The notes: a model not told the origin generated them from the sequence alone. Counted from the first letter of the stretch, positions 23,438 to 29,100 are shown. The stretch: 64,000 bases of DNA from the human T2T-CHM13v2.0 reference genome, Homo sapiens (GCA_009914755.4 CP086569.2:10496001-10560000), one strand, 5' to 3'. Numbers and translations: made by a program.

Positions 23438-24300
23438 GCCAATCATTAGCCCCTGAGGGTGCCCCCAGGCTCCCTGGGGTGCACGGCTGGGGGTTCCATG
23501 GCAGGGCCCACTGGGGACCTCCATCCCCCCAAGTGCAGACCCGGCGACATCCGCCCTCCTCTCCTGCCATGCCTGCCCCTTCCCCCCCACCCCCACCACA
23601 GGTCCTGTGTGGTCACGGATTGGGTGGTGTGGGGAAGAGGGGCTCCTGGCTGTGAGGAAGAGAGAGAGAGTGGAGCCATCACCTGCAAAAACAGAGAGGG
23701 AAGAGAGCCCGCTGGGGTCGAGTTCCTGTGGCCACCACCACGGTCCTGTTTCTTCCCTCGGGGGCTCCCTCCTGCCTCACACAGCTCGTAGTGCAGGGTT
23801 TGTTGGTGCTGGTGGGGTGGATGGTCCTGTGCCATCATTGTCGTTGCGCATCATCGGTGGTGGGGGCTTGTTGGGCGGGGAGGATGGCAAGTAGGAAGGG
23901 TCCACTGGGGAGAGGGTGGGGGAGCGTGTCCCAGTTGCCGCAATTTGCTGCCCACCCCTGGTGGCAGCCCGGCGACTGGCCGACCGCCGCTCCAGTGCCC
24001 CTCCTCCCCATCACCCCTCCCAGGCACCGTCCTCTTCTCCTGCCTGCCCCCCACCTGCCTGGCTTGTGACGCGGTGTGTCCGGGGCCAGAAGCCCACCAA
24101 GCGGCCCATCTGGCAGCGTTCATGGCCATGGTCCCGGGGTTCGTTTGCCCCTGGTGATGGTCCCCTGGATGCTACAGTGTCATATGCCATCAGGTGCCCA
24201 CCTCCTGCTCTTGGCTGCGCGGTGCCTGGCGCCCCATCCAGAGCTTTGATGTCAGGGCGGAATGGTGCTGCCACATCCTTGGACCCGTCCCCCACCTACA
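23438..24300 (+). pseudogene. rDNA internal transcribed spacer 2 (ITS2), 5' ~860 bp only; truncated ~230 bp before the expected 28S start; no 28S present
   Basis: Homology to human ITS2 at gcccctgagggtgcccccaggctccctggggtgcacggctgggggttccatggcagggcccactggggacctccatccccccaagtgcagacccggcgacatccgccctcctct, ctgtgtggtcacggattgggtgg, gagttcctgtggccaccaccacggtcc, cctcgggggctccctcc, tcatcggtggtgggggcttgttg and ccggcgactggccgaccgccgctcc. Homology ends near ggacccgtcccccacctacat at ~24300. The 28S 5' motif CGCGACCTCAGATCAGACGTGG is absent from the window. Confidence 0.78.
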
Positions 24301-24849
24301 TTTAGTACATAGGCAATCCCATGTAACTTATCAAAGCTAGCAAGTCCCTAGACTTGGTGCAGCCACTGTAGGGGTGGCCTCCCAGTAGCATCATTAACAT
24401 CAATTGTAATTGGTAGGCAATCACTTAGTTTCACATTTCATTACCTGAGTTATACAAATGTGTAAAAAAATACAGTTTTAATAAAAGGGAGTAAAGGATA
24501 ATAAGAGTAATATTCACAATCTCTAGTTGGAAGATGTAGTGTTTTCTCACAAATGATGCATTCCTGGAGCAAGGTCATTTTGTGTTTGGTTTGTTAAATA
24601 TCTATTTCCTTTTTGACAAACCACTGGAAAATCCCAGCTTCACAAGAACTCTCCATGAGAACGATCACAGAAAAGAACACCCATAACACAAAATCAAAAC
24701 AAGGGTGCTCCGGGATTCACATTAAAGACTCATTACCAAGTTTTCTTAGAAGAGATAAAGTACACAAAGTTACTTTTGTGTGACGGAAAACAGAGAAAAA
24801 GAGTAAATAGAAAAATAAATGTTATGCAACATCAGTGAAAACCAAGCTG

Positions 24850-25460
24850 TGGAAAAAAATGAATGGAATTGTTTTGTTTGCTATTGATTTCCTATCCTGA
24901 TATCAGAAAGTACAGGAAAGAACAAAGCACATTTTTTTGAGACAAATAGAACATAAAACAGATGAATGTTAAAAACTATTTTACAGTGCTAACAAAACTA
25001 TCTGTGACTTGTTTTTTCCCTTTAAAAATTCGATTTTGCACAATTACATTTATATAAATTATTGAAATAAAATTGTAAAGATGGAGAACAGACTATGGGG
25101 TTGCCAAGCGGAAGGGGTGGAGGAAAACGTGTCAGAGTGTCAGCAAAGATTGCAAGTTGGAACCTGGTGGTGAGGCTACGGTTCTGTATCTTGACTGTGG
25201 AAGTGGTAGTTACAGAGATCTACACCACATAAAAATGCACAGAACACACTCACACACATACACACATACAAAAATGAATGCATACAAAACGGTTGCGATC
25301 TGAGTAAGCTTTCTGAATTGTACCTATGTCAGTTTCCAGGTTTTGATAATGCTCTATGGCTATGGGAGATGCCACCACTGGAATTAGTGAAGAGTACCTA
25401 AGACATCCCTGTACATTTTGCAACTTCCTGTGAATCTATAGTTATTTCAAAAGAAACTTG
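24850..25460 (+). mobile_element. probable ancient L1 (L1M/L1PB-like) 3' end
   Basis: atggggttgccaagcggaaggggtggagg ... gaattgtacctatgtcagtttccaggttttgataatgctctatggctatgggagatgccaccactgg ... tacattttgcaacttcctgtgaatctatagttatttcaaaagaaa resembles the 3'UTR of older L1 families (..ggttgccagggg..ggg..gaatgg..; ..tgttaccattgg...tttttgcaacttcctgtgaatctataattatttcaaaataaaa). Identification is from memory and has not been aligned. Confidence 0.4.
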
Positions 25461-26147
25461 AAAGTCATAGCAGACTTTCACTTCAAAGAGGAAAGAAACT
25501 GAAGATTAATGGAATTGTTGAAGAACATCAAATATGCAATAATCTGTATGAGAGCTGTATTCTGTCCATTCACAGCACAGCTGTCATTTAGCCTTTTCCT
25601 GACGTGCCCTGGAGGACTTGAGCTCCTCTTGGATTGTCAAGGCCAATAGTGTTTATTTGTTACTAAATTTGTACTGGACCACCAAAAAATGAAAATTGAT
25701 TGAATAATCATTTATAATAACAACAAGTAATTTTACTTATAAAGAGACAATAATGGTAACAGATTTAAATCTTTAGGGTAAAGAATAGGATCTTTGTAAG
25801 ACAATATTGGCAAAATTTAAAAAGAAAATTAAGGAATCAGGAACATAAGTAGTTCAGTATTGTGAAAAAATTCTTGATCTGAGAAGCAAAAGAACAGTAT
25901 TTCTGTTTTGCGTTTCTGCTCCAAACCTGATGAATCACCTTAGGCAATGCATGCCCTTTCCCTGAATATGTTTTCTTTTCTGCAAAATAAAGTGAGATAG
26001 ATCATCTCCAAGGTCCCCCAAATATTCACATTTTCGCCTCCACATGAACTTCAGTTGAATTCCTAATTTCAGTGTGGATAATACATGTGTGCTGCACCAC
26101 AAGCAGTATGTCTAAACTCTCATGTTGGTCCTAAAAACTAATTATGA

Positions 26148-29100
26148 ACAGTTTGGAAATTCTGTTGTTGTAGAATCAGCAAAGGGATATTTGTGAGCGC
26201 TTTGAGGCCATGGTGAAAAAGGAAATACCTTCACATAAAAACTCTAAAGAAGGTTTGGGAGAAACTGCTTTGTGATGTCTGCATTCATCTCACAGAGTTA
26301 AACGTTTCATTCCTTTGATAAGTCTGGAAACTCAGTTCTTGTACAATCTGCAAAGTGATATTTGTGAGTGCTTTGAGGTCTATGGTGAAAAAGGAAATAT
26401 CTTCACATAAAAACTAGACAGAAGCTTTCTGAAAAACTACTTTGTGACATGTGCATTCATCTCACAGAGTTAAACCATTCTTTTGATTGAAAAGCTTGGA
26501 AATGGTGTTCTTGCAGAATCTGCAGAGGGATATTTGTGAGTGCTTTGAGGCCTATGGTGAAAAAGGAAATATCTTCACATAAAAACTAGAAAGAAGGATT
26601 ATGAGAAACTGCTTTGTGATGTGTGCATTCATCTCACAGAGGTAAAGGCTTCTTTTCATTGAGCAGATTGGAAACTCTGTTCTTGTAGGATCCACAAAGG
26701 GGTATTTGTGAGCAGTTTGAGGCCTATCGTGAAAAAGGAAATATCATCCCATAAAAACTTGACAGAAGTTTCTGAGAAACTTCCTGTTTGTGTGTGCATT
26801 CTTTGGATTGGGCAGTTTGGAAACAGTATTTTTGTAGAATTGTCAAAGAGATATTTGTGAGCACATGGAAGCCAATGGTGAAAAAGGAAATATCTTCACA
26901 TAAAAACTAGAGAGAAGCTTTCTGAGAAACTGTTTTGTGATGTGTGCATTCATCTCAGAGTTGAACCATTCTTTTGATTGAGTAGTTTGGTAACAGTCTT
27001 TTTGTAGAATCTGCAAAGGGATATTTGTGAGTGCTTTGAAGCCTATGGTGAAAAAGGAAATATCTTCACATAAAAAACTAGAAGGAAGGTTTTTGAGAAA
27101 CTACTTTGTGATGTGTGAATGAATCTCACAGAGTTGAACCTTTCTATTGATTGAGCATTTTGGAAACAGTCTTTTTGAAGAATCTGCAAAGGGATATTTG
27201 TGAACACTTTGAGGCCTATGGTGAAAAAGTAAATATCTTCACATGAAAACTAGACAGAAGCTTTCTGAGACACATCTGTGTGATGTGTGCACTCATCTCA
27301 CAGAGTTGAACCATTCCTTTGAGAAGTTCACCAACAGTCTTTTTGTAGAATATGCAAGGGGATATTTGTGAGTGCTTTGAGGCCTATGGTGAAAAAGAAA
27401 ATATCTTCACATAAAAACTAGACAGAAGGTTTCTGAGAAACTGCTCTGCAATGTGTGCATTCATCTCACAGAGGTAAACGTTTCTTTTCATGTAGCAGAT
27501 GGGAAGCTCTTTTCTTGTAGAATCTGCAAAGGGATATTTGTGAGCAGTTTGAGGCCTATGGTGAAAAAGGAAATATCATCGCATAAAAACGTGACAGAAG
27601 TTTCTGAGAAAATTCCTAGCTATGTGTGCATTCATCTCACAGAGTTGAATGATTCTTTTGATTAAGCAGTTTGGAAACAGTATTTTTGTAGAATCAGCAA
27701 AGGGATATTTTTCAGCTCTCTGAGCCTTATGGTGAAAAAGGAAATATCTTCAATAAAAACTATAAGAATGTTTCTGAGAAGCTGTTTTGCAAGGTGTGCA
27801 TTCAACACAGAGAGATAAAAGTTTCTATTCTTTGATGAGTCTGGAAACTCTATTCTTGTAAAATCTGCAATGGGATATTTGTGAGAAGCTTGAGGCCTAT
27901 GGTGAAAAAGGAAATATCTTCACATAAAAACTAGACAGAAGATTTCAGAGAAACTTCTTTGTGATATGTGCATTCATCTCAAAGAGTTGAACCATTCTTT
28001 TGAATGAGAAGTTTGGAAACAGTCTTTTCAGAGAATCTGCAAAGGCATATTTTGAGCGTGTTGATAGGTATGGTGAAAAGGGAAATATCTTCACAAAAAA
28101 ACTGGACAGAAGCTTTCTGAGAAACTTATTTGTGATGTGTGCATTCATTTCACAGAGTTGAACCTTTCTTTTGATTGAGCAGTTTGGAAAGAGTCCTTTT
28201 CTATAATTTTCTAGAATCTGCAGAGGGATATATGTGAGCCCTTTATGGCCTAAGTTGAAATAGGAAATATATTCACATAGAAACTAGACAGAAGCATTCT
28301 GAGAAACTGCTTTGTGAAGTGTGCTTTCATCTCACAGTGTTGAACCTCCCTTTTGATTGAGGAGTCTGGAAACAGTCTTTCTGTAGAATATGCAAATGGA
28401 TATTTGGAGCTCTTTGAGGCCTAAGGTGAAAAAGGAAATATCCTCACATAAAAACTAGACAGAAGCATTCTGAGAAACTTCTTTGTGATGTATACATTCA
28501 TCTCACAGAGTTGAACCTTTCTTCTGATTGAGGAGTTTCAAAACAGTCCTTTTGTAGAATCTGCAAAGGGATATTTGTGAGCCCATTGAGGCCTACGGTG
28601 AAATAGGAAATATCTTCACATAAAAACTAGTCAGAAGATTTCTGAGAAACTTCTTTGTGATGTGTGTTTTCATCCCACAGAGTTGAACCTTTCTTTTGAT
28701 TGAGCAGTTTGGAAACACACTTTTTGTAAAATCTGCAAATGGATATTTGAAGCACTTTGAGGACTATGGTGAAAAAGGAAATATCTTCACATAAAAACTA
28801 GAAAGCAACATTCTATGAAACTTCTTTGTGATGTGTTCTTTCATCTCACAGAGTTGAACCTTTCTATTCATTGAGGAGATCAGAAACCATCTTTTTGTAG
28901 AATCTGCATATGGATATTTGGAGCAGTTTGAAGACTTGCTGAGAAAGGAAATATCTTCACATAAAAACTAGACAGAAGCATTCTGAGAAACTTCTTGGTG
29001 ACATGTGCATTTACCACACAGAGTTGAACCTTTCTTTTGATTGAACAGCTTGGAAACAATCTTTATATAGTATCTCCAGAGGGATGTTTGAGAGTGGTTT

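What the first reader, a model, noticed from the sequence alone, without database searches (positions are those of the whole stretch)
24300..26148. Junction topology: truncated ITS2, then ~1.8 kb of old-repeat/AT-rich DNA, then alpha satellite; resembles a fossil centromere-proximal rDNA array boundary
The rDNA relic does not grade into more rDNA. After the ITS2 breakpoint (~24300) there is ~1.8 kb of AT-rich sequence, part of which looks like an ancient L1 3' end. Then at 26148 monomeric-type alpha satellite begins and continues for 38 kb. In the human acrocentrics the proximal (centromere-side) rDNA junction is likewise a truncated unit followed by pericentromeric sequence. A decayed version next to alpha satellite suggests one of two origins. 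It may be a relic of an ancestral nucleolus-organiser (NOR, rDNA array) edge. Some ape chromosomes carry NORs that the human homologues lost, for example the chimpanzee homologue of chromosome 18. Alternatively it may be a pericentromeric segmental duplication of an old proximal junction. The data cannot distinguish these.
Basis: inference. Interest (0 to 1): 0.66.

Follow-up and report, generated by a model that had tools for sequence, protein, structure and literature searches.

The report
Decayed rDNA fragment beside alpha satellite
A dead, mutated piece of one ribosomal RNA gene unit stops abruptly inside ITS2, is followed by 1.85 kb of ordinary AT-rich DNA and then by monomeric alpha satellite; this kind of centromere-side rDNA fossil is already described, and at least its right-hand part exists in several diverged copies.

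Summary
I recovered live human rDNA from contaminant contigs in public assemblies and aligned it to the window. Homology with ITS2 ends at window 24298 (±3), about ITS2 nt 941 of 1169. The last ~229 nt of ITS2, 28S and the 3'ETS are absent from all 64 kb. The 1846-bp spacer (24299-26144, GC 35%) matches no sampled rDNA and no alpha satellite. Monomeric alpha satellite without CENP-B boxes starts at 26145.

- The relic is a 22.8-kb piece of a single unit. It is also broken on the left, at window 1515 (IGS +2.87 kb), so no tandem array is visible.
- Its breakpoint differs from the modern proximal junction, which keeps only ~5.3 kb of 45S.
- An independent 1886-bp contig reproduces the spacer and the spacer/alpha junction at 92-93% identity. 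A second contig matches at 95%. The three copies are about equidistant.

This points to an old pericentromeric duplicon. The 18S is 8.9% diverged, and the IGS carries the cdc27 pseudogene that is reported in apes only.

Degraded centromere-associated rDNA units are already published (Robicheau 2017; 2025 ape-acrocentric preprint). Chromosomal location and species could not be determined with these tools.

The parts
1515..16726 (+). Relic intergenic spacer. It starts at live IGS position +2.87 kb after the 28S end. The right limit (transcription start) is only inferred, as 18S start minus ~3.66 kb.
   Evidence: BLAST is collinear with live human IGS contig L040: window 1515-10737 matches L040 2251-12980 at 78-84%. 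The cdc27 pseudogene ORF at 14956-15426(-) hits human CDC27 residues 1-153 at E 7e-87.
16727..20383 (+). Relic 5'ETS (approximate start). It contains an Rfam mir-663 match at 19509-19598.
   Evidence: Position relative to 18S; GC 0.61 and CpG o/e 0.59; mir-663 scores 89 bits against a gathering score of 75.
20384..22231 (+). Relic 18S rRNA pseudogene
   Evidence: Rfam SSU_rRNA_eukarya, 1278 bits, full model. It is 8.9% diverged from live human 18S, 4.5% at non-CpG sites. CpG count is 60 against 152 in live 18S.
22232..23282 (+). Relic ITS1
   Evidence: Aligned to live ITS1 in L005; 25.5% mismatches.
23283..23437 (+). Relic 5.8S rRNA pseudogene
   Evidence: Rfam 5_8S_rRNA, 121.5 bits; 9 mismatches in 155 aligned bases against live 5.8S.
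23438..24298 (+). Relic ITS2, nt 1 to ~941 of ~1169. The breakpoint lies at its 3' end (24298/24299, +/-3 nt).
   Evidence: Pairwise alignment to live ITS2 in L003. Homology ends at '...GGACCCGTCCCCC--ACCTAC'. 25% mismatches; GC 0.657 against 0.831 in live ITS2.
24299..26144 (.). Spacer of 1846 bp: AT-rich, non-rDNA, non-satellite, non-coding
   Evidence: No similarity to live ITS2 tail, 28S, 3'ETS, IGS +0 to +13.6 kb, or the rest of the window, apart from a CA-type microsatellite. No Pfam domain in any of six frames. An alpha-satellite HMM scores no better than on shuffles. GC 0.353. Window 24712-26144 is reproduced in independent contig L107 at 92.2%.
25061..25470 (+). Putative old L1 (L1M-type) 3' end, including a CA-rich microsatellite at about 25206-25290
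   Evidence: Recognised from my own knowledge of L1M 3'-end consensus sequences only; not testable here. The microsatellite is the only part of the spacer that hits other sequence.
26145..64000 (.). Monomeric alpha satellite. Orientation blocks are + 26145-30778, - 33291-38041, + 39214-41311 and - 41311-59557. It is interrupted by L1 insertions at about 30.8-33.3, 38.0-39.2, 43.6-45.3, 59.6-60.9 and 61.6-64.0 kb.
   Evidence: TRF period 171/172 with 73-82% matches and no better match at 342/343. Self-BLAST identity 72-84%. No CENP-B box. L1 ORF2-like ORFs in the interruptions. The first ~2.4 monomers are 92.8% identical to L107, against 82-86% between L107 and other monomers in the window.

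Best explanation
This is non-functional fossil DNA. It is a 22.8-kb fragment of a single rDNA unit (IGS +2.87 kb through 5'ETS, 18S, ITS1 and 5.8S to ITS2 nt ~941) that left the homogenised array and has since decayed, mainly by CpG loss.

Its 3' end is a plain non-homologous breakpoint. It is joined to 1.85 kb of ordinary AT-rich DNA that carries old repeats, and that DNA abuts monomeric alpha satellite. The join between spacer and alpha satellite was already in place when the block was copied. So the window holds one copy of an old pericentromeric segmental-duplication module, not the untouched edge of a former rDNA array.

Shown here: the anatomy, both breakpoints, the absence of 28S, the decay, and the existence of other copies of the spacer/alpha part.

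Inferred: that the copies lie in one genome; that the rDNA fragment travelled with the spacer; and the date. I place it around or soon after the ape/Old World monkey split, roughly 20-40 Myr ago.
For: - The breakpoint lies at ITS2 nt ~941, and no 28S, ITS2 tail or 3'ETS occurs anywhere in the 64 kb.
- The left end of rDNA homology is at window 1515 (IGS +2.87 kb). Beyond it lie two Alus and unique non-rDNA sequence, so no second unit is visible.
- The spacer is unrelated to sampled rDNA and to alpha satellite, and has no coding remnant.
- Independent contig L107 (1886 nt, found) aligns end to end with window 24712-26551. It crosses the same spacer/alpha junction, at 92.2% identity in the spacer and 92.8% in the alpha part. 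L107's alpha part matches other monomers in the window at only 82-86%.
- L108 matches window 25258-25600 at 95.0% and then diverges.
- The three copies are about equidistant. Private differences are 9, 11 and 7 over the ungapped columns of the ~343-nt three-way alignment.
- Decay: 18S is 8.9% diverged, 4.5% at non-CpG sites, and CpG count falls from 152 to 60.
- The cdc27 pseudogene is present in the relic IGS. It is reported in ape but not monkey IGS (PMC6281188).
- Literature: four degraded rDNA units next to the HSA20 centromere and one at the vestigial HSA2 centromere. The HSA20 copy shown in detail has ~8 kb of 45S plus IGS (PMC5381670). 'Known 18S/ETS segmental duplicates' reach at most 93.2% identity (PMC3847771).
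Against: - No other copy of the ITS2/spacer junction itself was found. L107 starts at window 24712. The junction 30-mer is absent from both large collections, and two protein searches across it were empty. So it is not shown that the rDNA part was duplicated together with the spacer.
- L107 and L108 are contaminant contigs in metagenome assemblies. Their species (presumed human) and the species of the window are not established. One of them could therefore be an orthologue rather than a paralogue.
- L108 is a 1x-coverage contig.
- Live IGS from about +13.6 to +25 kb was not sampled, so an IGS origin of the spacer or of window 1-1515 is not fully excluded.
- The chromosomal position is unknown.
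Confidence: 0.65

Rival explanations
1. In-situ fossil (founder copy). This locus is the actual centromere-side edge of a nucleolus organiser that an early ape chromosome once carried. The other copies were duplicated from it later.
For: - The 45S points towards the alpha satellite. This is the polarity at the proximal end of live arrays, where the PJ-linked rDNA is ETS+18S (PMC3847771; PMC5381670 Table 1).
- The 2025 ape-acrocentric preprint (10.64898/2025.12.22.696095) reads pericentromeric 45S pseudogenes on HSA16, together with acrocentric-associated satellites, as relics of acrocentric ancestry. It also reports rRNA pseudogene remnants near the human Y centromere and acrocentric-like features in the HSA20 pericentromere.
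- The IGS is present, so the relic is genomic and not retrotransposed.
- The copies diverged about as long ago as the relic left the array. One copy could therefore be the source.
Against: - Only part of one unit is present. rDNA homology also stops on the left at window 1515, next to non-rDNA.
- There is no trace of 28S or of a second unit in the 64 kb.
- The breakpoint is not that of the modern PJ.
- Nothing singles this copy out as the founder.
Confidence: 0.2
2. Rearranged rDNA. The 1.85-kb spacer is itself a piece of IGS brought next to ITS2 by an internal deletion, so the relic does continue as rDNA.
For: - Live primate rDNA units contain some LINE-derived sequence: 4.3% of the human unit and 1.1-1.6% in other apes (PMC6281188 Table 1).
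- About 11 kb of live IGS (roughly +13.6 to +25 kb) could not be sampled.
- The relic IGS is shorter than the live one there.
Against: - The spacer has no similarity to IGS +0 to +13.6 kb, or to the ~15 kb of relic IGS in the window, other than a microsatellite.
- L107 shows the spacer joined to alpha satellite as a unit.
Confidence: 0.07
3. A duplicated copy of the present-day proximal junction (PJ) of the human nucleolus organisers.
For: - PJ sequence is 92.4% segmentally duplicated, mostly to peri-/centromeric regions (PMC3847771).
- The rDNA polarity is the same.
Against: - PJ-linked rDNA holds only ~5.34-5.37 kb of 45S, that is ETS plus most of 18S (PMC5381670 Table 1). It is 98.8% identical to the DJ-linked rDNA taken as intact (PMC3847771).
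- Here 18S is complete and the unit runs to ITS2 nt ~941, about 7.6 kb.
- Here 18S is only 91.1% identical to live 18S.
Confidence: 0.03
4. Assembly artefact: a chimeric join of rDNA-like and satellite reads.
For: Repeat-rich pericentromeric regions are prone to misassembly. The ITS2/spacer join has no independent confirmation here.
Against: - The spacer/alpha join is reproduced in an unrelated contig (L107).
- The relic is uniformly decayed across 22.8 kb and collinear with live rDNA.
- Published human copies are described as ~8 kb of 45S plus IGS next to centromeres (PMC5381670).
Confidence: 0.03

Closest known systems
Highly degraded, centromere-associated rDNA units on HSA20 (four) and at the vestigial HSA2 centromere (one), Robicheau et al. 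2017 (PMC5381670)
   Same: - Genomic, IGS-containing, collinear and heavily mutated rDNA units lying next to centromeric sequence.
- The HSA20 copy shown in detail has ~8 kb of the 13-kb 45S plus IGS. That fits a unit ending near ITS2, as here (about 7.6 kb).
   Different: - That paper gives dot plots only, with no breakpoints. It reports ~22 kb of IGS, against 15.2 kb here.
- I could not show that the window is one of those five loci.
Proximal junction (PJ) of human nucleolus organiser regions, Floutsakou et al. 2013 (PMC3847771)
   Same: - A truncated last rDNA unit transcribed towards the centromere.
- It is followed by segmentally duplicated pericentromere-like DNA.
   Different: - The PJ unit stops in 18S (~5.3 kb of 45S), and its rDNA is 98.8% identical to DJ-linked rDNA taken as intact.
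- The relic here stops in ITS2 and its 18S is 91% identical.
- The flanking sequences could not be compared.
45S rRNA pseudogenes in pericentromeres of formerly acrocentric chromosomes (HSA16; remnants near the human Y centromere; acrocentric-like features on HSA20), 'Origin and evolution of acrocentric chromosomes in human and great apes', 2025 preprint (10.64898/2025.12.22.696095)
   Different: - That work is at chromosome scale. It does not settle whether an individual copy is in situ or duplicated.
- Here a duplicated module is shown for the spacer/alpha part.
MIR663A (20p11.1) and MIR663B (2q21.2) loci (locations from my own recollection, not tested)
   Same: A mir-663 hairpin lies inside 5'ETS-derived sequence of an rDNA relic near centromeric or vestigial-centromeric alpha satellite. 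The window has an Rfam mir-663 match at 19509-19598.
   Different: By recollection, the hairpin sequence in the window differs from both annotated human precursors at many positions. It would then be another copy or another species.

Membership tests
Degraded centromere-associated rDNA unit (rDNA pseudogene with IGS) | Collinear homology to both the 45S region and the IGS of live rDNA | tested here: met
   18S and 5.8S by Rfam. ITS1, ITS2 and 18S aligned to live contigs. IGS window 1515-10737 is collinear with L040. The cdc27 pseudogene is present.
Degraded centromere-associated rDNA unit (rDNA pseudogene with IGS) | Divergence far above that of array copies (pseudogene) | tested here: met
   18S 8.9%, 5.8S 5.8% and ITS ~25% diverged; about 60% of 18S CpG dinucleotides lost.
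Degraded centromere-associated rDNA unit (rDNA pseudogene with IGS) | Lies next to centromeric satellite | tested here: met
   Alpha satellite starts 1846 bp after the rDNA break and runs for at least 38 kb. The position on the chromosome itself was not testable.
Present-day proximal junction (PJ) of human NORs | Last rDNA unit truncated after ~5.3 kb of 45S (within 18S) | tested here: not met
   18S is complete and the unit continues to ITS2 nt ~941. PJ sizes are in PMC5381670 Table 1.
Present-day proximal junction (PJ) of human NORs | Junction-linked ETS/18S near-identical (98.8%) to DJ-linked rDNA taken as intact | tested here: not met
   18S is 91.1% identical to live 18S; the PJ value is from PMC3847771.
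Present-day proximal junction (PJ) of human NORs | Flanking sequence is the conserved PJ contig | not testable with these tools
   No PJ sequence or human genome was available to compare with window 24299-26144.
Monomeric (non-HOR) alpha satellite | ~171-bp tandem monomers | tested here: met
   TRF period 171/172 from 26145 onwards.
Monomeric (non-HOR) alpha satellite | No higher-order periodicity with >95% identity between repeats | tested here: met
   Self-BLAST identities are 72-84%; the only hits above 88% are L1 insertions.
Monomeric (non-HOR) alpha satellite | CENP-B boxes rare or absent | tested here: met
   0 matches to TTCGNNNNANNCGGG on either strand.
Pericentromeric segmental duplication | Another copy of at least 1 kb at 90% identity or more | tested here: met
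   L107 matches 1.84 kb at 92-93% across the spacer/alpha junction; L108 matches 343 nt at 95%.
Pericentromeric segmental duplication | The copies lie at different places in the same genome | not testable with these tools
   L107 and L108 are contaminant contigs of unknown locus and presumed human origin. They differ from each other by 5.6%, so they are not alleles.
Old LINE-1 (L1M-type) 3' end in the spacer | Similarity to a curated L1 3'-end consensus | not testable with these tools
   No repeat library was available. The resemblance of about 25061-25470 rests on my recollection only.
Old LINE-1 (L1M-type) 3' end in the spacer | ORF2 remnant upstream of the 3' end | tested here: not met
   No Pfam hit of note in six frames of 24299-26148. 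A fragment holding only the 3'UTR would not have one, so this does not exclude the claim.

The most novel reading that the evidence does not exclude
This copy is the founder. It would be the real fossil of the centromere-side boundary of a nucleolus organiser carried by an early ape chromosome, with a breakpoint (ITS2 nt ~941) and a flank different from today's PJ. It would then record that the proximal junction of ape NORs has been replaced at least once, and that a now NOR-less chromosome once carried rDNA beside its centromere.
Probability: 0.12. Interest if true: 0.5.

Novelty: already known. Interest (0 to 1): 0.2.

Why it matters
Degraded rDNA units beside centromeres are used as markers of former acrocentric or NOR-bearing chromosomes, and as an example of how arrays shed junk DNA. 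The base-level anatomy given here is the information needed to tell copies apart and to build a copy phylogeny in T2T primate genomes. It comprises both breakpoints, a spacer that is neither rDNA nor satellite, a spacer/alpha join that predates the copying, and an age bracket set by the cdc27 pseudogene. The result adds no new kind of element.

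Tried and rejected
- Exact look-up of ten ORFs from the relic and spacer in the 15-billion-protein collection found none.
- A homologue search with the 129-aa ORF that ends at the ITS2 break found nothing.
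- A 1016-aa concatenate of all open segments of window 24050-24760 also found nothing.
- The junction 30-mer is absent from metagenome contigs and genome contigs.
- The 5.8S pattern is absent from viral contigs, so no walking along rDNA was possible there.
- The spacer gave no match to PLSDB plasmids in distant mode.
- Pfam on six frames of the spacer gave only two sub-threshold chance hits.
- I considered that the spacer might be decayed alpha satellite, prompted by a 15-nt inverted match. I rejected this because an nhmmer profile built from 24 monomers scores 0.3 bits, within the shuffle range.
- I considered that the spacer might be 28S or ITS2 tail. BLAST rejects this.
- I considered an IGS origin. 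It is rejected for IGS +0 to +13.6 kb and for the IGS present in the window, but remains open for the unsampled part.
- The supplements of PMC5381670 are not held as text. The S2 figure of PMC6281188, which names the IGS LINE fragments, is an image only.
- The species and chromosome of the window could not be established.

Full report
**Observation.** The window carries, on the + strand, a decayed rDNA unit followed by alpha satellite.
- Rfam finds a full-length 18S at 20384-22231, a 5.8S at 23283-23434 and a mir-663 match in the 5'ETS at 19509-19598. It finds no large-subunit rRNA anywhere.
- A permissive Rfam search of 23400-27000 gives only chance-level hits.
- TRF starts a 171/172-bp array at 26145.

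**Getting a reference.** No primate genome is searchable with these tools, so I looked for live rDNA among contaminant contigs.
- A 79-nt 5.8S pattern found seven contigs in bacterial assemblies.
- L003 has an ITS2 of about 1170 nt and a 28S of 5067 nt. L005 has 18S, ITS1 and 5.8S. The two are identical in their overlap, and I take them as human rDNA.
- A pattern taken from the 3'ETS/IGS end of L003 then found 99 stretches in metagenome contigs.
- Among them is L040, which covers the IGS from +0.62 to +13.6 kb after the 28S end.

**The ITS2 break.** The pairwise alignment shows collinear homology from 5.8S through ITS2.
- It ends at window 24298 (±3 nt), at '...GGACCCGTCCCCC--ACCTAC'. After that the two sequences are unrelated.
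- This is about ITS2 nt 941 of ~1169, so the last ~229 nt of ITS2 are missing.
- The live ITS2 tail, 28S and 981 nt of 3'ETS have no BLAST hit anywhere in the 64 kb.

**The spacer (24299-26144).** It is 1846 bp with GC 0.353 and CpG o/e 0.21.
- It has no similarity to ITS1, ITS2, 28S, 3'ETS, IGS +0 to +13.6 kb, or the rest of the window. The one exception is a CA-type microsatellite at about 25206-25290.
- Six-frame translation has no Pfam domain of note.
- A profile HMM built from 24 alpha monomers of the window scores no better on the spacer than on shuffles. So it is not decayed satellite.
- From my own knowledge, about 25061-25470 reads like the 3' end of an old L1M-type LINE. No repeat library was available to test that.
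- Caveat: live IGS from about +13.6 to +25 kb was not sampled, and primate rDNA units do contain some LINE-derived sequence (PMC6281188 Table 1).

**The alpha satellite.**
- Self-BLAST identities are 72-84%. The only hits above 88% are between L1 insertions.
- TRF matches are no better at 342/343 than at 171/172.
- There is no CENP-B box on either strand.
- This is monomeric, pericentromere-type alpha satellite, with several orientation switches and L1 insertions.

**The left side of the relic.**
- Window 1515-10737 is collinear with live IGS from +2.87 to +13.6 kb.
- Homology starts sharply at 1515, at 'CCATTGGAGAATTTTAACTTTC'. In live rDNA a truncated Alu precedes that point.
- In the window the preceding 1.5 kb holds two Alus and unique sequence, with no similarity to IGS +0.6 to +2.9 kb, the 3'ETS or 28S.
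- So the window holds a 22.8-kb part of one unit, broken at both ends, with no second unit in view.
- The relic IGS also carries the cdc27 pseudogene. The ORF at 14956-15426(-) hits human CDC27 residues 1-153 at E 7e-87.

**Other copies.** A protein search used translated pieces of the L1-like part of the spacer. It returned two predicted proteins, and their contigs could be fetched.
- L107 is 1886 nt, from a marine-sediment metagenome assembly (SDBS01), so it is presumably human contamination.
- L107 aligns end to end with window 24712-26551. It passes through the same spacer/alpha junction and the same first monomers.
- Identity is 92.2% in the spacer and 92.8% in the alpha part. L107's alpha part matches other monomers of the window at only 82-86%.
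- L108 is 579 nt at 1x coverage. It matches window 25258-25600 at 95.0% and then diverges.
- In the shared ~343 nt the three sequences are about equidistant: 93.9%, 95.0% and 94.4%, with 9, 11 and 7 private differences.
- The spacer/alpha join therefore predates a duplication that produced at least three lineages. L107 and L108 differ by 5.6%, so they are not alleles.
- No independent copy of the ITS2/spacer join was found.

**Age.** I take live 18S as a proxy for the ancestral sequence.
- The relic 18S is 8.9% diverged, 4.5% at non-CpG sites. It has lost about 60% of its CpG dinucleotides.
- The cdc27 pseudogene is reported in the IGS of apes but not monkeys (PMC6281188). That places the exit from the array after the ape/Old World monkey split.
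- The amount of decay, and the 7-8% divergence between copies, would suggest about that age or older at genome-average rates. This rests on my own estimates and is only rough.
- Together they point to early hominoid evolution.
- A relic of a NOR lost since the human-chimpanzee split, such as the chimpanzee chr18 example, should be far less decayed.

**Comparison with what is known.**
- Robicheau et al. 2017 (PMC5381670) described four degraded rDNA units beside the HSA20 centromere and one at the vestigial HSA2 centromere. The HSA20 copy shown in detail has ~8 kb of 45S plus IGS. They discussed both a former array and the incorporation of segments.
- Floutsakou et al. 2013 (PMC3847771) mention known 18S/ETS segmental duplicates of at most 93.2% identity.
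- A 2025 preprint reads pericentromeric 45S pseudogenes on HSA16, together with acrocentric-associated satellites, as relics of acrocentric ancestry. It also notes rRNA pseudogene remnants near the human Y centromere and acrocentric-like features in the HSA20 pericentromere.
- The modern PJ is different. Its last unit holds only ~5.3 kb of 45S (PMC5381670 Table 1), and its rDNA is 98.8% identical to the DJ-linked rDNA.

**Verdict.** The topology is real and shares the polarity of a proximal array end. What is present, however, is a sub-unit fragment inside a duplicated pericentromeric module. It is not a demonstrable array boundary, and it is not a copy of today's PJ. Whether one of the copies is the original NOR edge cannot be decided without the complete assemblies. 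The kind of object is already described, so interest is low.

Noticed in passing
window 19509-19598 (+): Rfam mir-663 precursor match (89 bits against a gathering score of 75) inside the relic 5'ETS. By my recollection the hairpin differs from both annotated human MIR663A and MIR663B, so it is another rDNA-relic copy of that hairpin.
   Followed up: partly
window 13567-14046 (-) and 14953-15426 (-): cdc27 processed-pseudogene ORFs in the relic IGS. The second hits human CDC27 residues 1-153 at E 7e-87. I used it as an age marker, since it is reported in ape but not monkey IGS.
   Followed up: yes
window 15436-16209 (-): A 257-aa L1 ORF2-like ORF lies between the cdc27 pseudogene and the presumed rDNA promoter. 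I could not check whether it is also in live IGS or was inserted after the relic left the array.
   Followed up: no
window 1-1515: rDNA homology begins sharply at 1515 (live IGS +2.87 kb, next to a truncated Alu in live rDNA). Upstream are an AT-rich unique stretch, two antisense Alus (about 322-810) and about 700 bp of unique sequence that is not rDNA.
   Followed up: partly
window 10737-13500: The relic IGS looks about 11 kb shorter than the live human IGS between the end of L040 homology (+13.6 kb) and the cdc27 pseudogene. This could be a deletion in the relic or a later expansion of the live IGS; the live sequence for this part was not available.
   Followed up: no
window about 41311: Head-to-head orientation switch of alpha satellite with no intervening insertion. 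TRF arrays 39214-41311 (+) and 41311-43566 (-) meet there, and GC skew flips. Other switches coincide with L1 insertions (30.8-33.3 kb and 38.0-39.2 kb).
   Followed up: no
window 58862-60947 versus 60943-63035: A tandem duplication of about 2.09 kb (88% identity) that includes both alpha satellite and L1 sequence.
   Followed up: no
L108 344-579, compared with window 25600: The third copy of the spacer diverges abruptly after window position 25600 into unrelated sequence that looks like an interspersed repeat. It is either an insertion or a different duplication boundary. The contig has only 1x coverage.
   Followed up: partly
L107 1206-1244, compared with window about 25907: L107 has 39 extra bases that repeat the adjacent 'TTTCTGCTCCAAAC.TGATGAATCACCTTAG' motif. 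This is a small tandem duplication or deletion difference between the copies.
   Followed up: no
L001-L007 and L008-L106: Vertebrate rDNA, several clearly human, sits as contaminant contigs in bacterial genome assemblies labelled Shinella, Arthrobacter, Lysobacter, Atopomonas and Rubrobacter MAG. The human IGS pattern also matched 99 stretches of metagenome contigs.
   Followed up: partly
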